From IMG/VR virus record IMGVR_UViG_2639762884_000001: a stretch of DNA of 64,000 nt. One strand, written 5' to 3'. Shown one piece after another: positions 9,850 to 56,360 of this stretch (its first letter is position 1; every line of letters begins with the position of its first letter). The position numbers were made by a program, and so were the translations under genes. Under the pieces are notes generated by a model. It saw only the letters and a list, made by a program, of their open reading frames with translations. It searched no databases and had not been told where the DNA came from. This stretch comes from a virus. Lineage: Duplodnaviria > Heunggongvirae > Uroviricota > Caudoviricetes.

Positions 9850-9942
9850 TGGTGGAAAAAAAATTTTATATCGGTAAAAATAGGTAAGTATTTACTTAGT
9901 TGCGGACAAGGATAACCCGCCAAATCAAGGAGCATATTCAAC

Positions 9943-14030: not shown

Positions 14031-14170
14031 GCAATCATAGGGATATATTAGTGAGTTACTAGATACGAATTTGAACAGCCGTTAAACGGCATATGCATAG
14101 ATAGGTAAGTATGTACCTATAATTGAAAGGAGAAGTGTGATATAAATCCGCCATCCCGATTTGACTTTTC

Positions 14171-29829: not shown

Positions 29830-31050
29830 TTAATTAAAACCGAATGAATTAAGTTCTGCTTTGAATTTATCGACCATTTTTTCAACTTCGTTTACAATTG
29901 CGTGAATCTCTTCGTCTTTTCTCGGATTAGAATTGAGGTCAAAATATGCCTTATATAAGGCATATTTTGACAAGCTTCCTTCAATATTTTCAGAGAAAAT
30001 ATTGGTACGACCATCAGTTAATAAGATATCAGCAGATCGGGAATTTAAATTATATTTATAGTAAATCTTTATTAGTCTGCTTATCTCTTTTTCATTCTTG
30101 ATTACCCTCTGTCTTTTACCAGCAATATTAAGACTCCAGCCTACATAACTAGTCAGATCGGAATTAAACTTACACACTTCCGCATCAGCTTTTTCCATAT
30201 TTAGATTAATATTATTTCTCATGTGTAGCGGTAATTCGTTGAATTTTTGCTGTAAATGCTGTTTGCAGGGATTGTTGTAAGACCACAGAATTGCGAACGT
30301 AGCTCTTTGCATCCGGGTATTCAGATCGATGTTAAAGTTCTCACGATCACGAATCATTTCATCTACATAAAACTCTACAGCTTTTCGGTATTCTTTGTTA
30401 AAGATCTCGGTAACATACATTTCTAAATAATGGACTTTCGAGATTGCCTCATCAAAAAAAAGCTCACTCTCAAAGAAGTTGTATTTATTTAAGAGATTAG
30501 AAAGTCTACTTAAGTCATAGGTTTTATTATTTTCAATATTAAGACCAAAAATGGCAATTAACAGACTTACTTTATGATTAATACTGCTACGTAATTGAGC
30601 TATATAAATTCTCTTTTCATCTTCTGCTGATGACAGTAGATAAAACTCTTTATCTAAATAATTTAAAATTAGAATTATGTGATTTACATATTTAATGTAA
30701 ATAGGTTGTTTTGTTACATAATAATAAATGCTTTTGATGGAATTAATGCTCAATTTCGTATTAAACTCTTTGTCATTCAACAAAGTGTTATTTACGTCCT
30801 CAAGTAATTTATCATGTTGCTCTAGTAATATTCCGTACCATTCTTTAAAAGAGGCTTTTTTCATTTCAAGAAGTGAATCTGCCGTTAATTGTGTTGCCTT
30901 CATTGCAGCTTTTGCACTATTTCTTGCCTCATAAGCAGCCCAAGCAGTAACAAAAGTAGCAAGTGAACCTATAGCCTCTTTGTATTCTTTAGCCACATCC
31001 CAAAAAATAATAGTTATTACACACAATATGAGAATTAATATTAAAGGCAT
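29830..31050 (-). CDS. AT-rich membrane-anchored protein of unknown function (candidate accessory/defence gene)
   Basis: 406 aa; N-terminal TM helix PLILILILCVITIIFW then a helical N/K/Y/I-rich soluble domain; markedly lower GC than flanking DNA; opposite strand. Confidence 0.5.
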   Translation of the reverse strand: MPLILILILCVITIIFWDVAKEYKEAIGSLATFVTAWAAYEARNSAKAAMKATQLTADSLLEMKKASFKEWYGILLEQHDKLLEDVNNTLLNDKEFNTKLSINSIKSIYYYVTKQPIYIKYVNHIILILNYLDKEFYLLSSAEDEKRIYIAQLRSSINHKVSLLIAIFGLNIENNKTYDLSRLSNLLNKYNFFESELFFDEAISKVHYLEMYVTEIFNKEYRKAVEFYVDEMIRDRENFNIDLNTRMQRATFAILWSYNNPCKQHLQQKFNELPLHMRNNINLNMEKADAEVCKFNSDLTSYVGWSLNIAGKRQRVIKNEKEISRLIKIYYKYNLNSRSADILLTDGRTNIFSENIEGSLSKYALYKAYFDLNSNPRKDEEIHAIVNEVEKMVDKFKAELNSFGFN

Positions 31051-31256
31051 GTTATCTATATCGTTAGTTAATTTTGAACATAAATGATACTTAGTCCACC
31101 GCTAAATTTCATCAAATTTGATAATTTTCTTGACGATCATGTCTCAAAATTATTTATACTTGGCATATTTGAGATATATAATAATAGGTAATAACACACC
31201 TATCACATTTAAGCATCAACAAGATAAATTACGGACCCAGACCAGAAAGGAAACTA

Positions 31257-31505
31257 ATGAGAAATATACTTATCTACGGACGAGATAACTGCTCATACTG
31301 CAAACGTGCGGTCGAGCTGGCGAAGAAACTAAAGGGACATGGCTACGGTGATTATGAGTACATCGACATCACCACTGCCGGTATCGATAAGGAAAAACTT
31401 AGCGAAATTGTTGGTAAACCGGTAGAGACTATCCCCCAGGTGCTGATCGATGGCCAGCCGATTGGCGGATACACAGAACTGGCTGCATACGTCAGCACCC
31501 TCTGA
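31257..31505 (+). CDS. Glutaredoxin-like protein (NrdC/NrdH-type)
   Basis: 82 aa with CSYC redox motif near the N-terminus (YGRDNCSYCKRA) and glutaredoxin-like C-terminus (PQVLIDGQPIGGY). Confidence 0.7.
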   Translation: MRNILIYGRDNCSYCKRAVELAKKLKGHGYGDYEYIDITTAGIDKEKLSEIVGKPVETIPQVLIDGQPIGGYTELAAYVSTL

Positions 31506-31509
31506 TTTT

Positions 31510-31533
31510 AACGGCTCACAGGAGCCGTTTTTT
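31510..31533 (+). terminator. Rho-independent terminator
   Basis: acggctc-acag-gagccgt hairpin followed by TTTTTT. Confidence 0.6.
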
Positions 31534-31585
31534 ATTCCCACCAAACTCACACCTGTTTCCATTAAAATTCAAAAAACAACGCCTG

Positions 31586-31618
31586 AATGATTCCATACCT
31601 ACTATGTATGGAATCATT
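31586..31618. promoter_or_regulatory. Perfect 12-bp inverted repeat upstream of the recombinase gene (candidate operator/recombinase site)
   Basis: aatgattccata-N9-tatggaatcatt. Confidence 0.4.
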
Positions 31619-31716
31619 GCTGAAAATGAGTTACTTTTACTCTTGATCCTATAAGAATCTATGCCTAATATACTGTTTACTTATACAGTGCATCGGCGTA
31701 ACTCGGTGATTGTCAT

Positions 31717-32820
31717 ATGAAAAATAGCTTTGACAGAGCACGCGCTGCGGAGAACACCTCAAAAGAGGCGATAGAGTATCTCGAAAGAGCATCTCAAATG
31801 CAGGCCGTTATGATCTCCCAGGTCAGCAATGACATGAGATTCTCGGACGCATTCATGTTATTCACTCGCTTATCTCTGCTGATAACCAGACGTCGGCCAG
31901 AGATCGCTGTTCATTGTATTTTGATACATGTTTTGCCGCACATTGCCGATGTAAAAGTAAGTGACATTAATAGGTTCATGGTGAACCAACTGGTCAACCC
32001 ACTAATACTGGATGGCAAAATTGTTATGGGCCGCCGCGTTTTCTCTCTGATGAAGCAGTTCCTTAGCTGGTGCGCCTTCCAGGGGATGATAGACGTGTCA
32101 CCGTTAAACGATATGTCACTTAACAAAGTTGCCGGTGGCGCAAAGCCCACACCTCGCGAGCGGAAGCTGACCGACGCAGAGGTATGGGTGTTCTGGAATA
32201 TATGGGACTACTTCAATGTGTGTGCTGGTACAAAATGGGCGGCCAGGCTGTGTCTTGTATCAGCAAGACGACCTGACGAAGTACTGCGGGCTAAAAAAAG
32301 TGAGTTCAATCTTAAGCGTGGGGTTTGGAATCAAGGCAAGAGGAACAAATCTGCCCGTGAGCATTCTCTGCCTTTAAGCTCATTAATGCGCACTTGTATT
32401 GAAGAGTTGTTCGAATATGGTAAAGACAGCCAGTGGCTCGTGCCTTCGAATAAAAAAATCGGGAAAGACCTTCCTATGTCTAAAGTGGCAATAGCCCAGG
32501 CATTACGTCGTATTCTGGAACGACCAGAACTGATGGAGCTTGAGCCATTTACACCCCGAGATTTGCGCCGTACTGCGCGTAGTTACTTCCCAGCATTAGG
32601 CATAAGCCAGGAGGTATCACGTAAAATCATGAACCACAGTCTTGAGGGGATAGATCGGGTCTACGACCGGCACGATTATATGGACGAGATGCGAGACGCC
32701 TTAGAAAGTTTCTCGACGTACATCGCATCAATCGTAGAGCAACCGGATTTAGACGAAATTGACCACAAATTTAAGGGAGATCGTCTATCAACAGAGCTTA
32801 TTCGTGTAAATTTTTCATAG
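31717..32820 (+). CDS. Tyrosine recombinase (phage integrase family)
   Basis: C-terminal catalytic region: LVSARRPDEV (Arg box), PRDLRRT, NHSLEGIDRVYDRHDY with terminal Tyr; 367 aa. Confidence 0.65.
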   Translation: MKNSFDRARAAENTSKEAIEYLERASQMQAVMISQVSNDMRFSDAFMLFTRLSLLITRRRPEIAVHCILIHVLPHIADVKVSDINRFMVNQLVNPLILDGKIVMGRRVFSLMKQFLSWCAFQGMIDVSPLNDMSLNKVAGGAKPTPRERKLTDAEVWVFWNIWDYFNVCAGTKWAARLCLVSARRPDEVLRAKKSEFNLKRGVWNQGKRNKSAREHSLPLSSLMRTCIEELFEYGKDSQWLVPSNKKIGKDLPMSKVAIAQALRRILERPELMELEPFTPRDLRRTARSYFPALGISQEVSRKIMNHSLEGIDRVYDRHDYMDEMRDALESFSTYIASIVEQPDLDEIDHKFKGDRLSTELIRVNFS

Positions 32821-33201
32821 AGACTTTATGGCCTCAACAACCTTTTGTGATGCGCCTTTCTCTTTACCGAATCGCTCGTTATATGCAGCAAGAACCTGTT
32901 TTTCGTCCTCGTTAAGAGGAGCAGTGCCTTCTTTGTATAAAAATGCTGCGAGTTCGGGTTGGCGTTCTTCCAGCACCATCATCATAAGACGACTTGGCTC
33001 AATACCCAGTGCCAGCGCCAGCGGACGAACCTTATCGATAGGCAAAGGAATTTTGCCGCTTTTAATTAAAGAAAGGTTGTTGGCGTTTTTATACCCAATT
33101 GTTTTGGCTATCTGGGCCTGGCTCATAGGTGAGGATTCAATCAACCCTGCGATAAAAGCAGCGTAGCGACTTTCTATAAATTCAATCTTGTTATCAGACA
33201 T
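32815..33201 (-). CDS. XRE-family helix-turn-helix transcriptional regulator (repressor-like)
   Basis: HTH MSQAQIAKTIGYKNANNLSLIKSGK near N-terminus; 128 aa; convergent with the recombinase gene. Confidence 0.6.
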   Translation of the reverse strand: MSDNKIEFIESRYAAFIAGLIESSPMSQAQIAKTIGYKNANNLSLIKSGKIPLPIDKVRPLALALGIEPSRLMMMVLEERQPELAAFLYKEGTAPLNEDEKQVLAAYNERFGKEKGASQKVVEAIKSL

Positions 33202-33231
33202 GGTTACAACCTTTGCGCGTTCAATTCTCTC

Positions 33232-33245
33232 TGGTAAGTGCTTAC
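33232..33245. promoter_or_regulatory. Palindrome ggtaagtgcttacc in the promoter region of the XRE regulator (copy of the dispersed motif core)
   Basis: Located about 30 bp upstream of the regulator start codon on the minus strand. Confidence 0.4.
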
Positions 33246-33452
33246 CGATATTACATCAAAGGTTAGGGTTGTAAAGCTATTATCATTTTTTTCGATAGGC
33301 ACTTAAAAGACCGGTTAAAGGCCATTGCACGGAGAAAAATTAGCCCAAAACAGGTAAGAAAATCAACTTGCATATGATATGTATGTATTCAGTATTGATA
33401 CAAATTTTAGTAGTATTCCTTACCATAGTATAAGTTAGAATGGATTGATTGA

Positions 33453-33665
33453 ATGAACACCACTATTTCCAGCCTAATCGCTCTTGAGATCGGACACGTA
33501 CAGAAATTAGCTGATGAGTGTGTAGCTGACATCCTCACCGATCTACCGAATGAGCAGATTCAGGTTGGTGTGAATGACACAACTGGATTTATATTCGAAC
33601 TTAACAACAAACGCTTCACGCTTCTCAATACCGGCTCCGGGTCTTTAGCCGTCAGAATCTGTTAA
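33453..33665 (+). CDS. Hypothetical small protein
   Basis: 70-aa ORF. Confidence 0.3.
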   Translation: MNTTISSLIALEIGHVQKLADECVADILTDLPNEQIQVGVNDTTGFIFELNNKRFTLLNTGSGSLAVRIC

Positions 33666-33763
33666 CCCCTCTTCTCCCTGCGCGAATGGCTTAGTTCCCT
33701 GTTCGCGCAGTGCTACATTAAACACACTAGTAAATAATTTGTTTTCATAACAAAGGATTAGCC

Positions 33764-35872
33764 ATGTCTAAAAAACGTTCCATCAAAGAGGTTCAGGACT
33801 TCCGTGACAGTGTAAAACGAGTAGTCGCTCTCCTTTCAGGTAAAAACATCCCTGTTGCAGAACGAGGGGACGACGCTTATGTACGCTATAACGATGATGG
33901 AGAGCCAATTCTCGTAAACATCCCATCAATCCCGGATAACGCAACACCGGCATTGATGAATGCTGTGCGCGGATTTCTCGATCATGAGGTTGCTCACATT
34001 TTGTTTACCGATATTCGTGTGTCCAACAAAATGAGAGAAAAAGGACGCGTTCCTTCCTGGTCGCTATGGAATGCCTTAGAAGACGTGTTCATCGAGCGAA
34101 AAATGGGTCAGGTCTTTAACGGAACAAGACGTAATCTGATGGCAACTCAGCGCCTTATAATCGAAAAAGTCTTTAAACCAAAGGCTTCAGAGGCTATTGC
34201 TTATTGTGGCAAAGATCAGCGCGCGCTTTTTCTAAACTTCTTTCTCTGTCCGGTTGTAAGAGCCTGGGATGGCCAAGCACCGTTCGTAGATTTCATGGAT
34301 GAATATTGGCCTGTCATTGAGAAACCAATTTCATTATTAAAAGAACATGGTATCGATGTGGCCGTGCGTAACATGTCTTGCACCGAGGATTGTGTAAAGG
34401 TGGCTGCGACCATAGCTAAGATCCTCAAAGACACTGAAAGTGAAAGCAAAGGTAAGGAGTCAGCTCCGGGAAAAACTTCCGATCCTTCAGACGCTGACCA
34501 GACGGATGCCTCTGGAGAAAACAATGAAGACAACGAAGATCATGAGACACCCTCAGCGTTAGATAATCACAAATCTATCAAATCAGAATCACACAGTAAG
34601 CACAAACATGATAATAACGACAGTGATGATTCAGATAATTCTGAATCATCAGAAACAATATTCGATGATACAGAAAATGATAAAGAGGTATCAGATTCTG
34701 ATGCTTCTGATAACGCGGTGTCAGAATCATTTACCGCTGACCACGAAAAAAGAAAAACGACAGAAGACGGCTCTTCAGATATTCCAACTCCGTCAAAAAT
34801 GAGTCTGGAAGAGGCTTTAGAGGAGCTGGATAGCATAGAAGATGAAGTCGGAGGCATGACAGAAGATGCTCTATCCGAAACGATTAAAAGCGAGTTAACA
34901 GAAAGCTCGAAAAGCGAATACAGGCCATACAATCGCTCATACGACTTCATCGGCTCGATTGATCAGGCAGAAGCCCATATCAAACGGCTTATTAAAACAT
35001 TCTCCGATATTGATTTAGGAGGATATCCAATCAGCCGCTATCGCATCGTTCCTGAAGGCAACCAGCTCTTCGACAAATATATTGAAAAGCATCTTTCGTC
35101 AGGTGTTTCGTCGACGCTGGCAAAAGACCTGGAGCGAGCAATAGCAAGCAGAAACAGAGTTCAGTTTATACCGGGCCAGCGTCGGGGGCGCATTCATGGT
35201 TCTAGTATCTACAGATTAGCAATGAATGATGATCGCGTGTTTCGTAAAAAAGAAGAATCTAAAGCCGTTAACGCCTGTGTTCAACAAGTGATTGATTTAT
35301 CAGGTTCAATGAGTGGTATAACGATACAATTGGCTCTTGCAAGTGCATATACCATCGCCGATGCCCTTGATCGAATAAATGTTCCCAACATTATCACCGG
35401 CTTCACTACATTTGGTAGTCATATGGCGGCAGGAGAACTTAAGGCTGTCAAGTATGAGTTCTCTCGCTTTGAATCTTTAATGCTACCTATCATCAAAAAT
35501 TGGAATGAAAAGGTAAATTCTCGCGAAGTTCGCTCACGTATGGGGTGCGTAGGCTACACATTCCCACTTCTTAATAACGTGGATGGTGAAAGCATAGCCA
35601 GCCTTGCATCGTTATTTTCCGGTCGCATGGAGGACAGGAAGATCATGCTTGTTCTGAGTGATGGCGCGCCGTGGGCTGTTGGGAGAGGTTTTGACGCTCA
35701 TTTGCGTTCGGTTGCGAAGCAAATTGAAACGCAGACTGACATTGATTTGATGGCAATTGGCATCATGACTGACGCACCGGAGAGATTTTACTCAAATCAT
35801 GCCCTGGTAACGAGCGTTGATAGTCTTGGTTCATCTGTAGTTACTGAACTATCTCGTATCATTTTAAAGTGA
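33764..35872 (+). CDS. von Willebrand factor A (VWA) domain protein, CobT-like
   Basis: MIDAS motif VIDLSGSMSG in the C-terminal half; long acidic Asp/Ser/Glu-rich low-complexity linker (about aa 240-350); paired with a CobS-like AAA+ gene. Confidence 0.6.
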   Translation: MSKKRSIKEVQDFRDSVKRVVALLSGKNIPVAERGDDAYVRYNDDGEPILVNIPSIPDNATPALMNAVRGFLDHEVAHILFTDIRVSNKMREKGRVPSWSLWNALEDVFIERKMGQVFNGTRRNLMATQRLIIEKVFKPKASEAIAYCGKDQRALFLNFFLCPVVRAWDGQAPFVDFMDEYWPVIEKPISLLKEHGIDVAVRNMSCTEDCVKVAATIAKILKDTESESKGKESAPGKTSDPSDADQTDASGENNEDNEDHETPSALDNHKSIKSESHSKHKHDNNDSDDSDNSESSETIFDDTENDKEVSDSDASDNAVSESFTADHEKRKTTEDGSSDIPTPSKMSLEEALEELDSIEDEVGGMTEDALSETIKSELTESSKSEYRPYNRSYDFIGSIDQAEAHIKRLIKTFSDIDLGGYPISRYRIVPEGNQLFDKYIEKHLSSGVSSTLAKDLERAIASRNRVQFIPGQRRGRIHGSSIYRLAMNDDRVFRKKEESKAVNACVQQVIDLSGSMSGITIQLALASAYTIADALDRINVPNIITGFTTFGSHMAAGELKAVKYEFSRFESLMLPIIKNWNEKVNSREVRSRMGCVGYTFPLLNNVDGESIASLASLFSGRMEDRKIMLVLSDGAPWAVGRGFDAHLRSVAKQIETQTDIDLMAIGIMTDAPERFYSNHALVTSVDSLGSSVVTELSRIILK

Positions 35873-35967
35873 ACAAAACAGCCTTAACGATAAGTAACCA
35901 CTTACGATAGATAATGATATATTTATATAAGAAGTTGAACGCTCATTAGAAAACAAAGGAAAAACGC

Positions 35968-37203
35968 ATGACTACTACTGCACTGCAAAATGAAAAAAAT
36001 CCTTCTGATTACCTTGTTTGCAAGTGGTGCGGAAAATCATTTCACTATTTTAAGTCCCATGTAGCCAATGGTAATTGCGAGGGCATTCCTGAGTCAGTAA
36101 AAGATGCCGATCCTGACACCGTACTGAAAATGTACACAACACAGTTTCCAGATGAGCCAACGCTATCGAAAAAGGCACTTGATGCAATTCAAGCTAAACG
36201 TGCCGAGCAAAAAAGCGAAATGGCCAAATCATCTGGCGTGACCAGTAGCCCAGGCTACACAGGCACAGTTGAGTACAAGACAGATCTGGTCGCAGCTCAC
36301 GAACTGCTAAATGTAACGGTGAAAGAACTCGGAACAAAACGTGGGACGCCGCTCATGGTTAGCGTCAACGTCAATACGCCGTTTCCAGAGTTCGTTCCAG
36401 AAGTGAAGAAGGGATACGTATATGGCGACTTCGAACTGATCAAAGACATTTTCATGATGCTTGAACTTGGCATACCTGGCTATTTGTGGGGTCATGCAGG
36501 AACAGGCAAATCTTCATTGCCTACACAACTATGTGCTTTGCTCAATCGTCCGTTAATCCGTGCCCAACATACAGCATCAATGGAAGAGGCTCATGTTACG
36601 GGACAAATTCTGGCGCGTGATGGCTCTACGTATTTCGAGCCTGGCTTGCTTGCGCTCGCAATGAAGCATGGCTGGGTTTACCTCGCGGATGAATACGACT
36701 TTGCGTTTCCACAGATTCTTGGCGTGTATCAGCCAGTGCTGGAAGGTGAAGCGTTGGTCATCAAAGAGGCGACTCCAGAATGGCGTCGCATTACTCCGCA
36801 TGAACGGTTTGCTTTCATTGGCACTGGCAACACGAACGGATCTGGTGATGAAACCGGCTTGTACCAGGGTACAAACATCCAGAACGCCGCGAACTTTTCG
36901 CGTTTTGGCATCGTTTCGAATGTGAAATACATGAGCAAAGAGGCAGAGATCAACATGTTGATAAATGCCGGTATCGTGGATGAATACGCAGAAAAGATGG
37001 TTAAGTTTGCCGGTATCGTTCGCGATGGATACGAAGAACACCTTATCAGTCAGCCAATTGGCCCTCGTGAACTTTTGTTGTCGGCCAAGATTGGAATGAT
37101 GCGAGGCGACTTTGTGACAGGTATTGAGCGTTCTTTCATTAACAAACTCCCTTCAGCTTCTGCACAAGCGGCTCGTGAAGTTGTTCAAAAAATATTTGGT
37201 TGA
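35968..37203 (+). CDS. AAA+ ATPase, CobS/MoxR-like
   Basis: Walker A GHAGTGKSS, Walker B VYLADEYDF; N-terminal Cys/His cluster CKWCGKSFHYFKSH...C. Confidence 0.6.
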   Translation: MTTTALQNEKNPSDYLVCKWCGKSFHYFKSHVANGNCEGIPESVKDADPDTVLKMYTTQFPDEPTLSKKALDAIQAKRAEQKSEMAKSSGVTSSPGYTGTVEYKTDLVAAHELLNVTVKELGTKRGTPLMVSVNVNTPFPEFVPEVKKGYVYGDFELIKDIFMMLELGIPGYLWGHAGTGKSSLPTQLCALLNRPLIRAQHTASMEEAHVTGQILARDGSTYFEPGLLALAMKHGWVYLADEYDFAFPQILGVYQPVLEGEALVIKEATPEWRRITPHERFAFIGTGNTNGSGDETGLYQGTNIQNAANFSRFGIVSNVKYMSKEAEINMLINAGIVDEYAEKMVKFAGIVRDGYEEHLISQPIGPRELLLSAKIGMMRGDFVTGIERSFINKLPSASAQAAREVVQKIFG

Positions 37204-37409
37204 TCGTGCGTAAAGGATGTTTCGGCTCTCTTATCGCTGCTTCTGAAACTGGTAAGGCTTGTCTGGTGTGTCCAGACAAGCCCGATTGTCACCAGTCAGC
37301 AAAAGAAGTTGCGATTTCGATGCATGGGAAGTTCGTAGGCTTCCCCAATGACAAAATCAAAAAAACCAGAAAGGTAAAAACACATGAAGGCACTGATGGT
37401 TCGAACTGA
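37200..37409 (+). CDS. Small cysteine-rich (zinc-ribbon-like) protein
   Basis: 69 aa with CLVCPDKPDC. Confidence 0.3.
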   Translation: MIVRKGCFGSLIAASETGKACLVCPDKPDCHQSAKEVAISMHGKFVGFPNDKIKKTRKVKTHEGTDGSN

Positions 37410-40400
37410 CTTCTCACTTGGGGAGTCGGCTCTAAAAGCAGAAAACGCGGTGAAGATTGCCAGAGAAGCTGGCTACACCGCTGTAATTTCAGCAGATAGC
37501 ATGAATATTGCGAGCGTTATTCCACTACAACGTGCCGCTGGTGACGACATGGCGGTTATTTGTGGTGTGAAACTAAACATTGTTGATGATCCCACATACG
37601 AGCACCGGGCTAAACTTGCTAAAGAATCTATGAGATGTATGGAATCATTAGAGCGGGGACGTAACTACTCGTTTACCGCTCTAATTAAAAATGAGCAAGG
37701 ATATCGCGACATCTGCGAACTAATGACGGTGGCCAACACACGAGAACAGTTCTACTTTGTACCGCGTCTCTCGCTCGAACAGTTGGTTTCTACATATGCC
37801 AAAGGCAACATCATCCTGCTCACTTCCGACATCGGTAGCGTGTTCCAACGCAACGATTTTGCAAAAATCATAAGCTCACTGATTACAGCGGGCGGGAAAG
37901 ACAACTTCTATAGCGTGGTTTATCCGCACCCTACCCCATTCTACGACCAGATTAACGTCCGAGCGATGAAAGTAGCCAGCGCACTGAAAATAGAGCCAGT
38001 AGCGTTCTATCCCGCTTATTACGAATCGATCGACGATGCAGACATTAAAGACATTGCGCACATGGTTACGAACAACATAAAAATCGACCAGCCGCATCGT
38101 CTGCGTATCCCCCACCAGCGAGATAACGCCGTCAATGGTCGCCGCCATCTCCTTGAGGCGCTTAAAGCCTTCTCCGTTCGCATGGATGTGCCGGTAACAG
38201 CTGCAATGGCCTCAACAACGCAGGACTCCATTATCGAAGCCTGTACATGGCGCTGGCATGAATTGCCACCAGCACTGCCCAAGATGGCAGACGACGAGCC
38301 TGCAACGCTGATGAAACTGGCTGTTGCAGGGCTGCGCAAACGTCTTACCACAAAAGAGTTTGGCTACACACCACCGGCTTCTGAGAACAGGGTTTATGTT
38401 GAGCGACTTAAGTACGAAATGGACACGCTTACTCGCCTGGGATTTTGTGGTTACTTCCTGATGGTACGCGATCTGATGAATCACAGCCGTGAAACTGGCA
38501 TTCCTGTCGGGCCTGGTCGTGGTTCCTCCGCTGGCTCTTTGGTGGCATGGTGCATAGGCATAACCAACGTCGACCCTATCCGTCACGGTCTTCTGTTTGA
38601 ACGTTTCATCAACCCTGAGCGTCTCGACTTGCCAGATGCGGATTTGGACTTCAGCCAGGCACGTCGCCATGAGGTGATCGAGTATCTGAATGAACGATAC
38701 GGCGAAGATTACGTTGCGGGTATTCCGAACTTCACATATCTGGGCGCAGCCTCTGCACTACGTGACACCGCTCGTATTTATGGTGTGGAGTCCGCAGATA
38801 TGGCGGTATCAAAAGAACTGAAGAACGTCGAGGATGATAGCCTTCCATTGGAAGAGCTGCGCGAACAACTGGCAAGTCTCGACAAATACGCGACAAAATA
38901 TCCTGATGCATTCAATGCAGCCTGCAAGTTACAAAGCCTTATGCGTGGCTTTGGTAGACATGCGGCAGGGATGATCGTAGCAGGTGTTCCTCTGACAGAA
39001 CGTACACCGGTTGAGCGCCGTGGTGACGCGCGTTGTATCGCATTTGACAAGCGTTACTGCGAGGCTATGGGCCTAATTAAGCTGGACGTACTTGGCCTAG
39101 CAACTCTCGATTTGCTTGATAGTGCAAAACGCTACATTAAAGAGAACACAGGTGAAGATATCAATCTTGATGCCATTTCTCTTGAAGATCGCAAGGTGCT
39201 GGATGGTTTTGCTGCTGGGTACACTCAAGGTGTTTTCCAGCTTGAATCAGGCCCAATGCGCAAGCTGCTTAAAGATTTAGGTGGTGGAATTGAGCCAATG
39301 AGCTTTAAAACGGTCGTCGCTACGACTGCGCTCTTCCGGCCGGGGCCAATTCAGTCAGGCATGTTGGATGACTATGTTTCTGTCGCCAAAGGCTTTATGA
39401 CGCCGGAATCATTACACCCCGTTCTTGATGAACTTACCGCGGAAACAAATGGCGTGATTCTCTATCAGGAACAGACGATGAACGCGACTCGATTGCTTGC
39501 CGGCTTCACAATGGCTGAAGCTGACGCTGTGCGTTCCGCAATCGGTAAGAAGAACATGGAAAAAATGAAGAGCATGGGCGAGAAGTTCATCGTTCAGGCT
39601 CAAGCTGGCTGGATAGACGTTGAGCTGGAAGATGGCACTACACAGCGCATTCACCGTGCGGAACATTTTAAATGCGAAGACGGAACTCTGAAAACTGTCG
39701 AAGAGGCACTTGAGCACGGCGCAAAACTACCTATAAACGCAGTACGCGTTACAGCGTCACATCCAGGGCTATCAGAGATGAAAGCGAAGGAGATCTGGAC
39801 CGCATTCGAAAAAAATGGTGCCTACCAGTTCAACAAATCACACTCTGTTGCTTACTCCTTGATCAGTTATCAATCTATGTGGTTGAAAACTCATTATCCC
39901 GCAGAGTTTTTCGCTGCTGCTCTCACTATTCTTGGCGAAGATAAACACCAGGGGCTGGTTAAAGATGCGCTGACCTATGGTATTCGCGTATTGCCACCAG
40001 ACGTTAACGTGTCATCCAACCGAATCGAGATCCGCACGCTTGAAGATGGCAGCCAGGTGCTGTATGCGCCCTTCTCTGCTGTGAAGGGGTGTTCTGAGAA
40101 TGGCTGCCAAGCCATCATGAGAGCGCGAGAAAAAGTTGGCGGCAAATTCGAGTCACTGGCGCAATTCGAAGAAGCTGTCGAGAAACGTGCCTGTAATAGT
40201 CGAGTGCGCGAATCGCTGCAAAAAGTAGGGGCGTTTGCATCCATCGAGCCAGGTAGTCTGCCAGCAACTGATCCAGAGCGCCTACGCGACCAGGCTGAAT
40301 TGATGGGAAACCTTGTCATAGACGCAGTTAAAGCCTCACGTCCGTTTGAGATGAACCCCAAACGTTCGGCTGAGATTAACGTGCTCATGACACGGATGGC

Positions 40401-40902
40401 GGCTGAAATGGGCTTAGGTGATGAACTAATCCGCCCCAGCATTGGTATTAAGCCGAAAATCATGATCATTCTGGACAATGCGAACGGCAATGATGCTCGA
40501 ACCGGTTACTTTATGGAGAACGGATACGACGATTTTAAGGCCAAGCTATTGACGGCTGGAGATTTACGCATGGGCGATCTGTATGTCACAGGCGTTTGCA
40601 AAAAGGTGAAAGACAAAGAAAAGGACTACACCAAAGACGAGATCGGCCAGTTCACCGACTTTATGCGTGAAGAGATCAATCTGGTACGTCCGACCTATGT
40701 GCTGACGTGTGGCAGCCGGGCGACGTCGCTCTTCAACAACAAGATCAAACCATCCGACCTGGTTGGACGCAAAGAGTATCTGCCGGAGCTGGATGTGACT
40801 GTTTTCTACGGATTTAACCCGAATATTTTGTACTTTCGCCCAGAGGAAGGCGAAAAGCTGGAAGCAATTCTTGCAGAGGTAGCGGAGACTATTAGCAAAT
40901 GA
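37384..40902 (+). CDS. DNA polymerase III alpha-type (DnaE-like) replicative polymerase with C-terminal UDG-like domain
   Basis: DnaE palm signature GFCGYFLMVRDLMNHSRETGIPVGPGRGSSAGSLVAWCIGITNVDPIRHGLLFERFINPERLDLPDADLDF; N-terminal PHP-like region; C-terminal ~200 aa with UDG-superfamily-like pattern. Confidence 0.8.
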   Translation: MKALMVRTDFSLGESALKAENAVKIAREAGYTAVISADSMNIASVIPLQRAAGDDMAVICGVKLNIVDDPTYEHRAKLAKESMRCMESLERGRNYSFTALIKNEQGYRDICELMTVANTREQFYFVPRLSLEQLVSTYAKGNIILLTSDIGSVFQRNDFAKIISSLITAGGKDNFYSVVYPHPTPFYDQINVRAMKVASALKIEPVAFYPAYYESIDDADIKDIAHMVTNNIKIDQPHRLRIPHQRDNAVNGRRHLLEALKAFSVRMDVPVTAAMASTTQDSIIEACTWRWHELPPALPKMADDEPATLMKLAVAGLRKRLTTKEFGYTPPASENRVYVERLKYEMDTLTRLGFCGYFLMVRDLMNHSRETGIPVGPGRGSSAGSLVAWCIGITNVDPIRHGLLFERFINPERLDLPDADLDFSQARRHEVIEYLNERYGEDYVAGIPNFTYLGAASALRDTARIYGVESADMAVSKELKNVEDDSLPLEELREQLASLDKYATKYPDAFNAACKLQSLMRGFGRHAAGMIVAGVPLTERTPVERRGDARCIAFDKRYCEAMGLIKLDVLGLATLDLLDSAKRYIKENTGEDINLDAISLEDRKVLDGFAAGYTQGVFQLESGPMRKLLKDLGGGIEPMSFKTVVATTALFRPGPIQSGMLDDYVSVAKGFMTPESLHPVLDELTAETNGVILYQEQTMNATRLLAGFTMAEADAVRSAIGKKNMEKMKSMGEKFIVQAQAGWIDVELEDGTTQRIHRAEHFKCEDGTLKTVEEALEHGAKLPINAVRVTASHPGLSEMKAKEIWTAFEKNGAYQFNKSHSVAYSLISYQSMWLKTHYPAEFFAAALTILGEDKHQGLVKDALTYGIRVLPPDVNVSSNRIEIRTLEDGSQVLYAPFSAVKGCSENGCQAIMRAREKVGGKFESLAQFEEAVEKRACNSRVRESLQKVGAFASIEPGSLPATDPERLRDQAELMGNLVIDAVKASRPFEMNPKRSAEINVLMTRMAAEMGLGDELIRPSIGIKPKIMIILDNANGNDARTGYFMENGYDDFKAKLLTAGDLRMGDLYVTGVCKKVKDKEKDYTKDEIGQFTDFMREEINLVRPTYVLTCGSRATSLFNNKIKPSDLVGRKEYLPELDVTVFYGFNPNILYFRPEEGEKLEAILAEVAETISK

Positions 40903-41050
40903 ACAAAGAGAACACCATGAAGGTGGCCAGAGAGAAAAGAGTTTATGGAAGTAAACAAGATTGGCGATGTAAGACAGTACAGGCTGAAGTGCCAAACCAG
41001 AGTCTCGCTATCCAACATTCTTGGTAAGAAGGTCGCTTAATATAATAAAC

Positions 41051-41077
41051 AGGCCCGTTATATAACGGGCCTTTTAG
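41051..41077. terminator. Bidirectional rho-independent terminator
   Basis: aggcccgtta-tata-acgggcct followed by TTTT; between the polymerase operon and the convergent minus-strand gene. Confidence 0.55.
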
Positions 41078-42058
41078 TTAACAAATTCTATTATTAACTA
41101 GTATAGTATGGAGTTTATTATTTATAGGGGAATACGGATCGAAATCACTCATCATGACACTATTTGATTCGCACGCCTGTTCAAAGGCATACATAATTAT
41201 AGGCATATAGCGCTCATGACATTTTTTAAGTGATTTAACTTCCTCTGATAGATACTCTAGTCGATTGTTACCTCTAATAGCCAATTCCACCTCATCATAT
41301 GAGTACAACAAATCGTTTAAATCACAGAAAAAATTAAAATTTGGTAGTCCATGTTTTAAATCCCCGTCCACAATTGTTTCTTCAAAGAATTCCCCTAATG
41401 CAGTAATGTTTCTCTCAATACCTTCGCATCGTTCAATGATCTTCAGATCTTCACTAGATAGCCATAATCTAAGCCATTTCTCTCTATCCCTTGGAGATTT
41501 CAGATATTGGTCTTCGTTAAATGTTACTGATGTACTTCCTGAGTTATTGTAATCCGCTGTACTTGATAACGATGCGATGGTTTGTTTGTCTAAATGCCGC
41601 CAGTAAATATCTGGCTCTTCATGCTTATTATCTTCGTTTAGACAAATTAAAACGATCACTATAGGGAAATCGCATTCCCCCCAATACTTTAAATTTTTAT
41701 AGGGGATCTGTACTCCTAGACTACTACTCATTGTGCGTGAGGTGGTTTTTACCTGAACGCCAATAAACATACCGGTAGAAAGTTCATTTTCATAGATTTC
41801 AACCTGTGCATCCAACCCCATATCAATATCCAGCAGTCGACAAGGCCATTTGAAATAACGGGAAATCCAATAAGCAAATAAGTACTCACCAGCGTGTCCT
41901 TCTGCACTGGTCTTCGGATATGTCATGCCTTCAGTTTTATTTTTTTCTGCTGCTGACCTCGCAGACTTAACTTTTGGGGGTGGGGACAGTTCTTTAGTCG
42001 GCACAGGCTTTTCTGCTTTTGCTTGATTGTTAGCTTTATTCATTGATTTTATTCTCAC
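41078..42058 (-). CDS. AT-rich PD-(D/E)xK nuclease-like protein (DUF4365-like) of unknown function (candidate defence gene)
   Basis: 326 aa; after a Lys/Pro-rich N-terminus: AEGHAGEYLFAYWI ... LLDIDMGLDAQVEIY ... FIGVQVKTT, a D...E...(Q)VK arrangement of restriction-endonuclease-like folds; low GC; opposite strand. Confidence 0.5.
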   Translation of the reverse strand: MRIKSMNKANNQAKAEKPVPTKELSPPPKVKSARSAAEKNKTEGMTYPKTSAEGHAGEYLFAYWISRYFKWPCRLLDIDMGLDAQVEIYENELSTGMFIGVQVKTTSRTMSSSLGVQIPYKNLKYWGECDFPIVIVLICLNEDNKHEEPDIYWRHLDKQTIASLSSTADYNNSGSTSVTFNEDQYLKSPRDREKWLRLWLSSEDLKIIERCEGIERNITALGEFFEETIVDGDLKHGLPNFNFFCDLNDLLYSYDEVELAIRGNNRLEYLSEEVKSLKKCHERYMPIIMYAFEQACESNSVMMSDFDPYSPINNKLHTILVNNRIC

Positions 42059-42735: not shown

Positions 42736-43764
42736 ATGTCTAAGACATTACTTGATTTGCTTAACAAAACTCGTGAAGACATTGCCGCCAAACGTGGTAA
42801 CAACGTTGATCTGACTCGCTTAAAAGACGGCGTTAACTATATCCGCATCTTCCCGAATAAAGACGACCCAAACGGTAAGTTCTTCCAGACTTTCGGTATG
42901 CACTACGTTAAGTATCAGAACGAGGAAGGTAAAGAAGCAACCAACGCTTATATTTGTGAGCAACATACTCACGGTCGCGCTTGTCAGCTATGCGAAATGG
43001 TGATGGAAGGTCGCGCTCGTCACAAGGGTAACAAAGCAATGGAAGAACGCATCGGTCAAATGCGTGCCACTCCTCGCTACCTGGTCAACGGCATTCTTTC
43101 TGCTCGTGAGGATTTCGCAGATGCTGAGAAATGCCAGTTAATCGAGCTGCCGTCTACTGTATTCGATGATATCTGCAAAGCAATCACCGAAGACATCGCT
43201 GATGATATCGGCAATCCACTGAGCAAAGAGGAAGGCTACGCATTCCTGATTAAACGTACTGGCTCTGGTCGCGATACCAAATATGACGTCTCGCCTAAGC
43301 GTAAAGTCTACAAAGGCGATATCGAAGATAAATTCTGGAACACCCAGCATGATCTGATCGCATACGCAAATCAGGCTGATGAAACTCGTCTTCTGTCGAC
43401 AGTTCGCACTATGGGTCGTCTGATTGGCATCGCTGCACCAACTGCCGCAGCATCTGCACCAGCAATTTCCTCAACCGCGAAAACATCGGCTGCGGCACTA
43501 CCTGGATTTGGCTCTGTCACTGGTCATACAGAAGGAGCGACGGCTGTAGCAACCGCGCACACACCGGCTTCTGAACCAACCAGTCTGGTTGATGAAGAAA
43601 TCCTCCGTGCCGTTGAAACTGAATTTAAACCAGAGGCAAGTTCCGCTGCCGTTGCCGTATCAGTCAAAGAGTCTGAAGCAGTCGCAGCGACATCTGTAGC
43701 AACCGCATCTGCGACGGAAGATGAAGGTCTGGATGACCTACTGAGAGAGCTGGACTCTCTGTAA
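42736..43764 (+). CDS. Single-stranded DNA-binding protein, T4 gp32-like
   Basis: Zinc-binding pattern C-x2-H-x5-C-x2-C (CEQHTHGRACQLC) in an OB-fold-sized N-terminal domain; acidic C-terminal tail (EDEGLDDLLRELDSL). Confidence 0.6.
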   Translation: MSKTLLDLLNKTREDIAAKRGNNVDLTRLKDGVNYIRIFPNKDDPNGKFFQTFGMHYVKYQNEEGKEATNAYICEQHTHGRACQLCEMVMEGRARHKGNKAMEERIGQMRATPRYLVNGILSAREDFADAEKCQLIELPSTVFDDICKAITEDIADDIGNPLSKEEGYAFLIKRTGSGRDTKYDVSPKRKVYKGDIEDKFWNTQHDLIAYANQADETRLLSTVRTMGRLIGIAAPTAAASAPAISSTAKTSAAALPGFGSVTGHTEGATAVATAHTPASEPTSLVDEEILRAVETEFKPEASSAAVAVSVKESEAVAATSVATASATEDEGLDDLLRELDSL

Positions 43765-45037: not shown

Positions 45038-46111
45038 ATGGCAAAAGGAAAATCCGCACTGGCACTTGCTCTGAAAAAGAAAATCGGTAGCAACGACGAA
45101 ATTCAGAAAGTAACTCATTGGATTGATACAGGCTTTCCACCGTTAAACAAAGCTATTTCTGGTCGTTACGATGGCGGCTTCCCATGTGGTCGTATCGTCG
45201 AAGTATTCGGTCCTCCAAGTGCAGGGAAAACGTTCCTTGCAACAGCAGCGATGATCTCCGCTCAAAAACAAGATGGTCTGGCGGTATTCCTCGATCATGA
45301 AAACAGTTTTGACGTTGGCCTGGCTGTAGCCAATGGCCTGAACGCAGATGAGGATGACGGTCAGTGGGTATACAAGCAGCCAGATACCTTCGAAGACTCT
45401 GTAGAGTTGATCGGCACAATACTTAAATTGGTTCGTGATGAAGAGCTTATCCCCGAATCAGCACCTATCTGTATCGTGGCTGACTCTCTTGCGTCTATGG
45501 TTCCGAACTCCAAAGCTGAGAAGTTCGAAAAGATGGCTGAAGGCACTGCCAAAGACAAAGATCAGCTAAACATGAACGACAATACGGCACTGGCTCGTGC
45601 GACGAGTGCGAACTTCCCTACTCTGGCTTTGTGGGCACGCAAATACAACGCCTGCATCATCTTCTTGAATCAGGTTCGCACAAAAATCGGTGTAATGTTT
45701 GGCGACCCTACTACGTCGCCAGGTGGAGATTCACCGAAGTTCTACGCTTCTGTACGTATCCGTCTTGGTGCATCGGTGATGAAGGATGGTAAAGAGAAGA
45801 TCGGCCAGGACGTAGGCGCAGAATGCATCAAAAACAAAGTTGCACCACCGTATGGCAAATGCACCTGGAAATTCTACTTCGATCCTACTCGTGGCCTCGA
45901 CGTTATCGAATCGCTCGTCGAGTACATGCTGGAAGAAGGATACCTGCCAAAGAACGCCAGCGGGCGAGTTGAAATTGGTGACAAGAAATACACCAAATCG
46001 CAGATCGTCGAGATGTATCGGGAGAAGCCACTGGCTGAAATCATTGCGGCTTTGCAGGCAATCGACGACCGAAGAGCAAAAGACAACCCCACCGAGTCAG
46101 TAGAAGAGTAA
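45038..46111 (+). CDS. recA: RecA-like recombinase
   Basis: Walker A GPPSAGKT; IIFLNQVRTKIGVMFGDPTTSPGGDSPKFYASVRIRLG closely resembles the RecA core. Confidence 0.8.
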   Translation: MAKGKSALALALKKKIGSNDEIQKVTHWIDTGFPPLNKAISGRYDGGFPCGRIVEVFGPPSAGKTFLATAAMISAQKQDGLAVFLDHENSFDVGLAVANGLNADEDDGQWVYKQPDTFEDSVELIGTILKLVRDEELIPESAPICIVADSLASMVPNSKAEKFEKMAEGTAKDKDQLNMNDNTALARATSANFPTLALWARKYNACIIFLNQVRTKIGVMFGDPTTSPGGDSPKFYASVRIRLGASVMKDGKEKIGQDVGAECIKNKVAPPYGKCTWKFYFDPTRGLDVIESLVEYMLEEGYLPKNASGRVEIGDKKYTKSQIVEMYREKPLAEIIAALQAIDDRRAKDNPTESVEE

Positions 46112-56287: not shown

Positions 56288-56360
56288 TTTCATTGATAGG
56301 TAAGTGCTTATCTATTAACATGGGCCACTATATTTAGTGGCCCTCTTTATTTGGTGATAC

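What the first reader, a model, noticed from the sequence alone, without database searches (positions are those of the whole stretch)
33764..37409. CobT-like VWA protein with a long acidic disordered linker plus CobS-like AAA+ ATPase, co-transcribed upstream of the DnaE-type polymerase
A 702-aa VWA protein (MIDAS motif DLSGSMSG) and a 411-aa AAA+ ATPase form a CobT/CobS-like or MoxR-VWA-like pair followed by a small zinc-ribbon ORF and then the polymerase gene, all on one strand with short or overlapping junctions. The VWA protein carries about 110 residues of Asp/Ser/Glu-rich low complexity (DNA about 34480-34760). A chaperone-like pair encoded in the replication operon is unlikely to act in cobalamin synthesis here; a role in polymerase or replisome assembly is a testable alternative.
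Basis: partly seen in the sequence, partly recalled or inferred. Interest (0 to 1): 0.5.

Follow-up and report, generated by a model that had tools for sequence, protein, structure and literature searches.

The report
Phage CobT/CobS-like motor-adaptor-protease pair
An E. coli phage-plasmid carries, at the head of its lytic replication operon, a well-known but functionally unsolved "cobalt chelatase-like" gene pair that looks like an ATP-driven motor, probably DNA-tethered, joined to a protease-bearing adaptor, not a vitamin B12 enzyme.

Summary
The window is an SSU5-like E. coli phage-plasmid, 96% identical to phages PhiR41_1 and Cyrano. ORFs 33764-35872 (702 aa) and 35968-37203 (411 aa) are homologues of cobaltochelatase CobT and CobS. 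A Cys4 mini-ORF and DnaE follow on the same strand.

The pair has been annotated for years, and the cobST cluster is known to be widespread in tailed viruses. What it does is unknown.

Evidence against a B12 role:
- Neither protein reaches the NCBIfam equivalog cut-offs.
- No CobN is encoded in the element, and E. coli makes no B12 de novo.
- Gene order is reversed relative to cellular cobS-cobT.
- The phage CobT keeps an intact zincin motif (HExxH...E) in about 98% of family representatives. Three cellular CobTs have lost it.

The acidic linker is a canonical CobT feature. All MIDAS and AAA+ catalytic residues are intact.

In the DnaE-linked lineage, CobS carries an N-terminal zinc finger of Ros/MucR type. 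The order CobT-CobS-DnaE held in 53 of 53 related viral contigs. T4-like phages place the pair beside clamp genes or structural genes instead. In the Cyrano lysogen the three genes are transcriptionally silent.

Best reading: an early-lytic AAA+ motor with a VWA adaptor and protease that acts on a DNA-associated client. It is not DnaE-specific, and the client is unknown.

The parts
32815..33201 (-). HTH repressor gene, divergent from the operon (context)
   Evidence: Homologue of Cyrano CYRAN_45 'putative repressor'. It is the expressed gene of this region in the lysogen, at 95.8 counts. Related prophages have an HTH gene in the same position.
33202..33452 (.). Divergent regulatory region containing the perfect palindrome GGTAAGTGCTTACC at 33233-33246
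   Evidence: Sequence read; repeats; pattern search. The consensus scan placed no clear + strand promoter here.
33453..33665 (+). First small ORF of the operon (70 aa, PHROG 2627, function unknown)
   Evidence: A small ORF holds the same position in relatives.
33764..35872 (+). CobT-like adaptor (702 aa): zincin N-domain, acidic linker, shaft, VWA/MIDAS domain
   Evidence: Pfam CobT and CobT_C. PDB CobT chains 21vt and 9uka. PHROG 1576, E 7.5e-301.
33764..34426 (+). CobT N-domain (aa 1-221), M48-like zincin fold. HEVAH at aa 74-78 (DNA 33983-33997). N103..E106 D107..E111 at DNA 34070-34096.
34427..34903 (+). Acidic, Ser-rich, low-hydrophobicity linker (aa 222-380)
   Evidence: Composition. Linker length ranges from 89 to 335 aa across the family. 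The equivalent linker is disordered in Brucella CobT.
35147..35269 (+). Predicted 'shaft' segment (aa ~462-502), basic and conserved, just before the VWA domain
   Evidence: Position inferred from the alignment to 9uka_G (query 434-697 against chain 345-616) and the Brucella shaft Q373-R413. G471, G475, L482 and F493 are conserved.
35270..35869 (+). VWA domain. MIDAS residues: DxSxS at aa 511-515 (DNA 35294-35308), NNVDGES at aa 604-610, LSDGAP at aa 631-636.
   Evidence: All MIDAS residues are conserved in 120 of 120 representatives.
35968..37203 (+). CobS-like AAA+ ATPase (411 aa)
   Evidence: Pfam AAA_5. PDB 9ujv CobS, E 1.8e-25, covering aa 141-411. PHROG 249. Catalytic residues are invariant.
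36019..36078 (+). Ros/MucR-type zinc-finger motif in the N-terminal extension of CobS (C18, C21, H31, then N36/C37)
37206..37409 (+). Cys4 mini-ORF (67 aa from GTG), translationally coupled to CobS and overlapping DnaE
   Evidence: It matches the N-terminal Cys motif of the 170-190 aa protein that precedes DnaE in relatives.
37384..40902 (+). DnaE-type DNA polymerase III alpha subunit (1172 aa)
   Evidence: Pfam PHP, DNA_pol3_alpha, finger and HHH_6 domains.
41051..41072 (.). Bidirectional GC-rich hairpin terminator; probable end of the operon

Best explanation
The two proteins form a motor-adaptor machine of the CobS/CobT (MoxR-VWA) type. CobS-like subunits would make an ATP-hydrolysing hexameric ring. 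CobT-like would dock on the ring through its N-domain, insert its basic 'shaft' into the pore, and hold a client protein through its MIDAS site.

The phage adaptor differs from the cobaltochelatase adaptor in keeping an intact zincin active site (HExxH plus a downstream Glu). The likely output is therefore ATP-driven remodelling coupled to cleavage of the client, not metal insertion into a corrin.

In this lineage the motor also carries a Ros/MucR-type zinc finger. The genes are the first large genes of the repressor-controlled early operon, which continues into DnaE. I therefore infer that the client is a DNA-associated protein, of host or phage origin, that has to be removed or processed when lytic replication begins.

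Shown: homology, intact motifs, fold, conserved synteny, and silence in the lysogen. Inferred: complex formation, proteolysis, DNA tethering, and the nature of the client.
For: Homology and intact machinery:
- CobS aligns to Brucella CobS with all ATPase residues conserved.
- CobT has the canonical layout of N-domain, disordered linker, shaft and VWA, with all MIDAS residues at 100%.

Protease features:
- H74, E75 and H78 are conserved in 118-119 of 120 cluster representatives; E106 and D107 in 119; E111 in 120.
- HExxH is present in 42 of 44 and 15 of 17 full-length CobT ORFs in the two groups of viral contigs.
- Three cellular CobTs read DSMALRK, DAFALRR and DAAALQH at the same place.

DNA link:
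- The zinc finger matches Ros/MucR.
- CxxC-x9-H occurs in 35 of 52 CobS ORFs in DnaE-linked contigs and in 0 of 25 in T4-like contigs.

Timing and context:
- The order repressor(-)/small ORF/CobT/CobS/.../DnaE/gp32/exonuclease/RecA holds down to 35% amino-acid identity.
- No terminator occurs before 41051.
- The genes are silent in the lysogen.

Not a B12 enzyme:
-.
- cobS behaves as a single-copy core gene in myo-cyanophages (PMC9983427).
Against: - No client has been identified, and no experiment exists for any phage CobST.
- The HExxH motif could serve only to bind metal.
- One sublineage, the Nickievirus type (phiK7B1), reads SEISK instead of HExxH. Proteolysis is therefore dispensable there.
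- Synteny within one phage lineage may be inherited rather than functional.
- In some T4-like contigs the pair lies beside virion genes.
- In Brucella the helix that carries HExxH here also contacts the CobS small domain. Access to the active site in the assembled complex is untested.
Confidence: 0.4

Rival explanations
1. Anti-defence or host-takeover protease unrelated to DNA replication. As the first large genes expressed after derepression or infection, the pair would recognise a host immunity or regulatory protein through MIDAS and destroy it.
Against: PADLOC gives only one marginal hit, DrmE at E 0.0014. A single conserved host target is hard to reconcile with hosts ranging from cyanobacteria to enterobacteria and haloarchaea. 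The zinc finger and the fixed place next to DnaE remain unexplained.
Confidence: 0.2
2. One reading: a non-proteolytic chaperone dedicated to folding, metal loading or assembly of the phage DnaE polymerase or its replisome.
For: CobT-CobS lies upstream of DnaE in 53 of 53 related viral contigs, and a conserved Cys4 protein lies between them. MoxR-VWA pairs are known activases or metal-insertion chaperones, for example NorQD and CbbQO (discussion of the bioRxiv paper). In cyanomyoviruses the pair sits immediately upstream of the clamp gp45 and the clamp loader gp44.
Against: The same pair occurs in phages that use PolA (ICP2-like) or T4-type gp43, so DnaE cannot be the general client. The near-universal retention of HExxH...E is not explained by a pure chaperone role. 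Some T4-like contigs place the pair beside structural genes.
Confidence: 0.15
3. Virion-assembly chaperone with peptidolytic processing of structural proteins, as proposed for the MoxR plus metallopeptidase-vWA pair of T4-like jumbo phages (Iyer et al. 2021, PMC7824862).
For: That proposal rests on the ATV tail-development precedent. In contigs L092 and L091 the pair lies next to sheath, tube and portal genes or next to gp5 and gp25.
Against: In this window the pair is about 20 kb from the tail and lysis genes, which end near 17 kb. It sits in the early operon with DnaE. In 53 of 53 related contigs and in most cyanophage contigs it is embedded in replication or recombination genes.
Confidence: 0.08
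4. Genuine auxiliary metabolic gene: the pair hijacks a host CobN to make more cobalamin for nucleotide synthesis (Seed 2011, PMC3037004; Liu 2021, PMC8651126).
For: True homology to CobS and CobT, with all elements of the CobSTN assembly present. This is the published interpretation.
Against: E. coli makes no B12 de novo, and Salmonella uses the CbiK route (PMC8123684). No CobN is encoded in the element. Scores are far below the equivalog cut-offs: 70.8 against 759 bits, and 84.8 against 559 bits. HExxH is retained here but lost in cellular CobT. The element's ribonucleotide reductase is annotated as NrdA/NrdB, a class that by general knowledge needs no B12.
Confidence: 0.05

Closest known systems
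Aerobic cobaltochelatase subunits CobS and CobT (Brucella melitensis CobSTN; PDB 9ujv and 9uka; bioRxiv 10.64898/2026.07.21.739949)
   Same: An AAA+ CobS with the same catalytic residues and C-terminal helices. A CobT with an M48-like N-domain, a disordered acidic linker, a shaft and a VWA domain with a full MIDAS site.
   Different: About 25-30% identity and far below the equivalog cut-offs. No CobN partner is present. Gene order is cobT then cobS, not cobS then cobT. The adaptor keeps HExxH, which cellular CobT has lost. The motor has an extra N-terminal region of about 100 aa with a zinc finger.
The cobST two-gene cluster of tailed viruses (SSU5 'porphyrin biosynthesis proteins', ICP2 ORF41/42, cyanophage cobS plus 'peptidase', haloarchaeal viruses)
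   Same: This window is a member of that cluster: 100% identical to Cyrano CobS and 81% DNA identity to SSU5. Pairing and order are the same.
   Different: Nothing essential differs. The literature treats the cluster as a B12 gene, and cobT/cobS are sometimes confused with the unrelated Salmonella CobT and CobS enzymes.
MoxR-VWA motor-adaptor pairs (CbbQ-CbbO, NorQ-NorD, RavA-ViaA), and the MoxR plus metallopeptidase-vWA pair noted in T4-like jumbo phages (PMC7824862)
   Same: An AAA_5/CbbQ_C-type ATPase next to a MIDAS-VWA partner. The jumbo-phage pair also has an N-terminal metallopeptidase on the vWA protein.
   Different: The clients of the cellular systems are known enzymes, whereas here no client is known. 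The jumbo-phage proposal is virion assembly, which the genomic context here does not favour.
M48 and other zincin metalloproteases (ZMPSTE24/Ste24, BepA, BlaR1; also ArdC, Spartan/Wss1)
   Different: The domain is soluble and is tethered to a VWA domain and an AAA+ ring. Its activity is untested.
Ros/MucR prokaryotic Cys2His2 zinc-finger DNA-binding domain
   Same: The family consensus C-x2-C-x9-H-x4-H and the flanking residues match. ROS_MUCR hits 30 of 71 relatives, and hhalign gives E 1.2e-5.
   Different: Here the finger is fused to an AAA+ ATPase rather than to an oligomerisation domain. The window copy is degenerate at the last ligand, and its DNA-contact residues are only partly kept.

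Membership tests
Cobaltochelatase CobS (TIGR01650 equivalog) | AAA+ core with Walker A, Walker B, sensor-1, arginine finger and sensor-2, alignable to CobS end to end | tested here: met
   Aligns to 9ujv residues 38-315, E 1.8e-25. The catalytic residues are invariant in six phage lineages.
Cobaltochelatase CobS (TIGR01650 equivalog) | Score at or above NCBIfam's curated equivalog cut-off (558.55 bits) | tested here: not met
   84.8 bits.
Cobaltochelatase CobT (TIGR01651 equivalog) | Architecture of N-domain, disordered linker, shaft and VWA with a complete MIDAS site | tested here: met
Cobaltochelatase CobT (TIGR01651 equivalog) | Score at or above the curated cut-off (759.05 bits) | tested here: not met
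   70.8 bits.
Cobaltochelatase CobNST holoenzyme | A CobN catalytic subunit available in the element or the host | tested here: not met
   No CobN appears among the 126 annotated features of the near-identical Cyrano genome. E. coli is a B12 salvager only (PMC8123684). The host genome itself was not searched.
Cobaltochelatase CobNST holoenzyme | Cobalt insertion into hydrogenobyrinic acid a,c-diamide | not testable with these tools
   This needs a biochemical assay.
MoxR-class AAA+ with VWA adaptor | An AAA_5/CbbQ_C-type ATPase encoded next to a MIDAS-containing VWA protein | tested here: met
   CbbQ_C is found in 56 of 71 family members. The two genes are adjacent in every locus with enough flank.
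Zincin (M48-like) metallopeptidase | HExxH plus a downstream Glu ligand on a zincin fold | tested here: met
Zincin (M48-like) metallopeptidase | Zinc binding and peptide-bond hydrolysis | not testable with these tools
   This needs purified protein.
Ros/MucR zinc finger (PF05443) | A C-x2-C-x9-H-x3/4-H ligand set and a profile match | tested here: inconclusive
SSU5-like phage-plasmids | Near-identity and synteny with SSU5, Cyrano and pHCM2-type elements | tested here: met
   95-97% DNA identity to PhiR41_1, CMS-2020a and Cyrano, and 81% to SSU5. Gene order is the same.

The most novel reading that the evidence does not exclude
Phage-type CobT/CobS would be a previously unrecognised kind of AAA+ protease. 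In it the protease sits on the VWA adaptor rather than on the motor. In the DnaE-linked lineage the motor would be anchored to DNA by a Ros/MucR zinc finger. The machine would strip or cleave DNA-bound proteins, such as nucleoid silencers, repressors or roadblocks, to license phage replication. The cellular cobaltochelatase CobT would then be a derived pseudo-protease version of this machine.
Probability: 0.2. Interest if true: 0.8.

Novelty: new variant of a known kind. Interest (0 to 1): 0.55.

Why it matters
cobS and cobT are among the most widespread "auxiliary metabolic genes" reported in phages. They are core genes in marine cyanomyoviruses and are present in thousands of clinical Enterobacteriaceae phage-plasmids. 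They are routinely counted as vitamin B12 genes in virome studies, although nobody knows what they do.

If the pair is instead an early-acting motor-adaptor-protease, those ecological annotations are wrong and a new phage-host interaction mechanism becomes testable. E. coli phage-plasmids such as this one would be a tractable model, because the host lacks CobN. The contrast between an intact HExxH in the phage type and its loss in three cellular CobTs also bears on how the cobaltochelatase evolved.

Tried and rejected
- **phmmer of the N-domain alone against PDB sequences.** It gave only chance hits.
- **The search for homologous proteins with full-length CobT.** It returned only close SSU5-like relatives. 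The exhaustive representative search gave the diversity, but cellular CobTs did not appear among its 150 listed hits. I fetched them from plasmid and chromid records through a Brucella fragment read.
- **PADLOC.** It gave no credible defence-system match.
- **A shared small partner ORF across lineages.** None was found. The ORFs after CobS in P-RSM4 and ICP2-like phage lack the Cys4 motif.
- **The consensus promoter scan.** It did not place a convincing promoter in front of the operon.
- **DNA tandem repeats in the linker.** They are negligible: one 9-nt repeat, 2.6 copies. The low complexity lies in composition, not in repeats.
- **A 2026 preprint on phage-plasmid heteroresistance.** It could not be read.
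Full report
**What the window is.** An 8-kb query around the finding (window 33000-41000) is 95-97% identical to Escherichia phages PhiR41_1, CMS-2020a and Cyrano, and 81% identical to Salmonella phage SSU5. The window is therefore part of an SSU5-like phage-plasmid of E. coli. The Cyrano annotation gives the layout: virion and lysis genes come first, then plasmid partition genes, helicase, primase and ligase, then tRNAs and an integrase. A divergent HTH repressor follows, and then the operon in question. After that come a T4-like recombination and nucleotide-metabolism set: UvsY, a gp32-type SSB, an exonuclease, RecA, RepA, SbcCD, NrdAB, ThyX and DHFR.

**Checking the observation.** The ORFs are exactly as described.
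- The 702-aa protein matches Pfam CobT at aa 9-294 (E 1.8e-27) and CobT_C/VWA at aa 492-701 (E 1.3e-82). It also matches PDB CobT chains.
- DLSGSMSG lies at aa 511-518.
- The 411-aa protein matches AAA_5. Its closest solved relative is Brucella CobS (9ujv, E 1.8e-25), aligned from aa 141 to the C-terminus.
It spans aa 222-380, with 50 D+E and 28 S in 159 residues, and hydrophobic content of 11% against 36% elsewhere.
- The mini-ORF has four cysteines. It probably starts at GTG 37206, two bases after the CobS stop, and it overlaps the DnaE start by 26 nt.
- No terminator-like hairpin occurs on the + strand between 33057 and the strong hairpin at 41051-41072, just after DnaE. This is consistent with one transcript but does not prove it.

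**The pair is already known as a gene pair.**
- The exact proteins belong to clusters of 3307 and 1077 member sequences. Sources name them "CobT-related", "porphyrin biosynthesis protein" or "AAA family ATPase".
- Seed et al. 2011 reported CobT/CobS in vibriophage ICP2.
- Liu et al. [quoted passage not shown]
- Fuchsman et al. 2023 found cobS at about one copy per myo-cyanophage genome, behaving as a core gene.
- The function is described as uncertain.
- Cyrano's labels, "dimethylbenzimidazole phosphoribosyltransferase" and "cobalamin synthetase", confuse these genes with the unrelated Salmonella CobT and CobS enzymes.

**Comparison with the real cobaltochelatase.** A 2026 preprint describes Brucella CobSTN.
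- CobS forms a hexameric ring.
- CobT has an M48C-like N-domain, a disordered linker of about 90 residues, a "shaft" that enters the ring, and a VWA domain with MIDAS residues D422, S424, S426, N518 and D546.
- CobN binds on the side of CobT facing away from the ring.

The phage proteins have every one of these parts. The ATPase residues are invariant. The MIDAS residues are conserved in 120 of 120 representatives. A basic, conserved segment sits where the shaft should be.

The acidic linker is therefore a canonical feature of the family and not a peculiarity of this element. Across 120 representatives it is 89-335 aa long (median 184) with a median of 38% D+E.

**Why it is probably not a B12 enzyme here.**
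- Both proteins score far below NCBIfam's equivalog cut-offs: 70.8 against 759 bits for CobT, and 84.8 against 559 bits for CobS.
- No CobN is annotated in the near-identical Cyrano genome.
- E. coli is only a B12 salvager, and Salmonella uses the CbiK chelatase (PMC8123684).
- Cellular loci have the order cobS then cobT. Every phage locus I examined has cobT then cobS.

**An intact protease motif.** The phage CobT carries HEVAH at aa 74-78 and N103..E106 D107..E111.
- An exhaustive search found 5077 clusters (at 50% identity) related to the protein. All of the best 150 score at or above 248 bits.
- Among 120 full-length representatives, H74, E75 and H78 are present in 118-119, and E111 in all 120.
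- In viral contigs HExxH is present in 42 of 44 full-length CobT ORFs of the DnaE-linked group and 15 of 17 of the T4-like group. Three of the four exceptions are truncated ORFs. The fourth is a Nickievirus-type sequence reading SEISK.
- Three cellular CobTs (Sinorhizobium, Cereibacter, Pandoraea) read DSMALRK, DAFALRR and DAAALQH at that position while keeping the downstream Glu.
- An AlphaFold2 model of aa 1-225 is confident (pLDDT 94.6). It has the topology reported for Brucella CobT_N.

Iyer et al. 2021 had noted a MoxR plus metallopeptidase-vWA pair in T4-like jumbo phages and suggested a role in virion assembly. The protease domain has therefore been noted before. I did not find the contrast with cellular CobT in the papers I read.

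**A zinc finger on the motor.** CobS-like has about 100 extra N-terminal residues.
- The family consensus there is C-x2-C-x9-H-x4-H.
- Pfam ROS_MUCR hits 30 of 71 family members, best E 1.4e-6. The window copy itself gives no hit.
- hhalign of the family against five genuine MucR proteins gives 81% probability and E 1.2e-5 over the finger.
- The AlphaFold2 model shows a beta-beta-alpha finger.
- CxxC-x9-H occurs in 35 of 52 CobS ORFs of DnaE-linked contigs and in 0 of 25 of T4-like contigs.
- The window copy has C18, C21 and H31, but N36/C37 at the last ligand position.
- A literature search found nothing connecting MucR fingers with phage CobS.

**Context survey.**
- In Pseudomonas phiK7B1, Rhizobium RHph_N1_10, an uncultured phage, and prophages of Ectothiorhodospira and Photobacterium, the order is: HTH repressor(-), small ORF, CobT, CobS, optional sigma-like and Cys4 proteins, DnaE, gp32, 5'-3' exonuclease, RecA.
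- Among 80 viral contigs, 53 belong to this lineage, with CobS identity from 35% to 100%. CobT is directly upstream in all 50 with enough flank. DnaE follows within 1.2-3.4 kb in 53 of 53.
- The Cys4 mini-ORF corresponds to the N-terminus of a 170-190 aa protein that precedes DnaE in the relatives.
- The remaining 27 contigs are T4-like. Most place the pair between gp47/gp46 and gp45/gp44.
- Contig L092 has sheath, tube and portal genes upstream of the pair. Contig L091 has gp5 and gp25 downstream.
- ICP2-like phage puts the pair upstream of a helicase and PolA.

Linkage to DnaE is thus fixed within one deep lineage. The pair itself is polymerase-agnostic and is not always in a replication module.

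**Expression.** In Misson et al. 2023 (S1 Table, overnight LB), the Cyrano repressor reads 95.8 normalised counts and the first small ORF 20.3. CobT reads 7.8, CobS 6.7 and DnaE 10.1. The paper lists the repressor at 10 times the local background. The operon is therefore silent in the plasmid state. This argues against a role in plasmid maintenance and for a lytic role.

**Interpretation.** The shown facts are these:
- a complete CobS/CobT-type motor-adaptor pair;
- an intact zincin site on the adaptor;
- a Ros/MucR-like finger on the motor in this lineage;
- the first position in a repressor-controlled operon that ends with DnaE;
- silence in lysogeny;
- no CobN available.

I infer an ATP-driven remodeller and protease that acts on a DNA-associated client at the onset of lytic replication (confidence about 0.4). 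The rivals are:
- an anti-defence or host-takeover protease (0.2);
- a DnaE or replisome chaperone (0.15);
- a virion-assembly chaperone (0.08);
- a true B12 function (0.05).

The client is unknown and none of these readings has experimental support.

**Verdict.** The feature is a long-annotated gene pair, and it is best described as a variant of the CobST/MoxR-VWA kind. Its interest is moderate. It lies in the unsolved function of a very widespread phage gene pair and in the concrete, testable mechanism suggested by the protease motif and the zinc finger.

Noticed in passing
window 33233-33246; also 56299-56312, 9883-9896, 14104-14117, 42874-42887: The perfect palindrome GGTAAGTGCTTACC lies just upstream of the repressor gene. 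Copies with 1-2 mismatches lie in intergenic gaps directly upstream of nrdA (56361), the tail-fibre gene (9943) and the holin-region ORF (14171). There are 5 matches against 1.3 expected, and 0 of 100 shuffles reached 5. It may be an operator or a promoter element.
   Followed up: partly
window 41078-42058 (- strand): A 326-aa DUF4365 protein sits just after the DnaE terminator. Cyrano carries HicA/HicB at that spot and SSU5 carries an AlpA-like regulator. This looks like a variable cargo slot.
   Followed up: no
window 29830-31050 (- strand), within 30001-32000: A 406-aa ORF with no Pfam hit lies in the lowest-GC part of the window (35.6% against about 46%), between the tRNA region and the integrase. 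Cyrano has a different gene there, CYRAN_43 (185 aa), expressed at 723 times background. It is probably acquired cargo.
   Followed up: no
L001 (Cyrano) 18693 onward; L010 18375-20435; window 45038-46111: RecA is 357 aa in the window. It is about 780 aa in Cyrano and 686 aa, with an intein hit, in the Ectothiorhodospira prophage. The intein is present or absent among close relatives.
   Followed up: no
L009 12387-15809, L010 12440-15808, L011 11657-15013: The DnaE of distant relatives gives an additional Pfam UDG (uracil-DNA glycosylase) hit. This hit was not found in the window's DnaE.
   Followed up: no
L004 10209-10844, L009 11182-11856, L010 11254-11877: A sigma-70 region-2-like gene lies between CobS and the Cys4 protein in many relatives. 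It is absent at this position in the SSU5-like enterobacterial elements.
   Followed up: partly
L012 1015-4666, L013 1-4660: In Sinorhizobium and Cereibacter the genuine cobS-cobT genes lie next to a BolA-family gene and a J-domain protein gene, not next to other cob genes.
   Followed up: no
L001 6765-10204 (Cyrano CYRAN_47/48): The public annotation calls these genes 'dimethylbenzimidazole phosphoribosyltransferase' and 'cobalamin synthetase'. Those are the unrelated Salmonella CobT and CobS enzymes, so this is a name-collision error. The same error recurs in several virome papers.
   Followed up: yes
L092 11-10792; L091 9-12425: These T4-like viral contigs have larger proteins (CobT 808 aa, CobS 476 aa), and the pair lies beside sheath/tube/portal genes or gp5/gp25 baseplate genes. 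This is a different genomic context from cyanophages and SSU5-like elements.
   Followed up: partly
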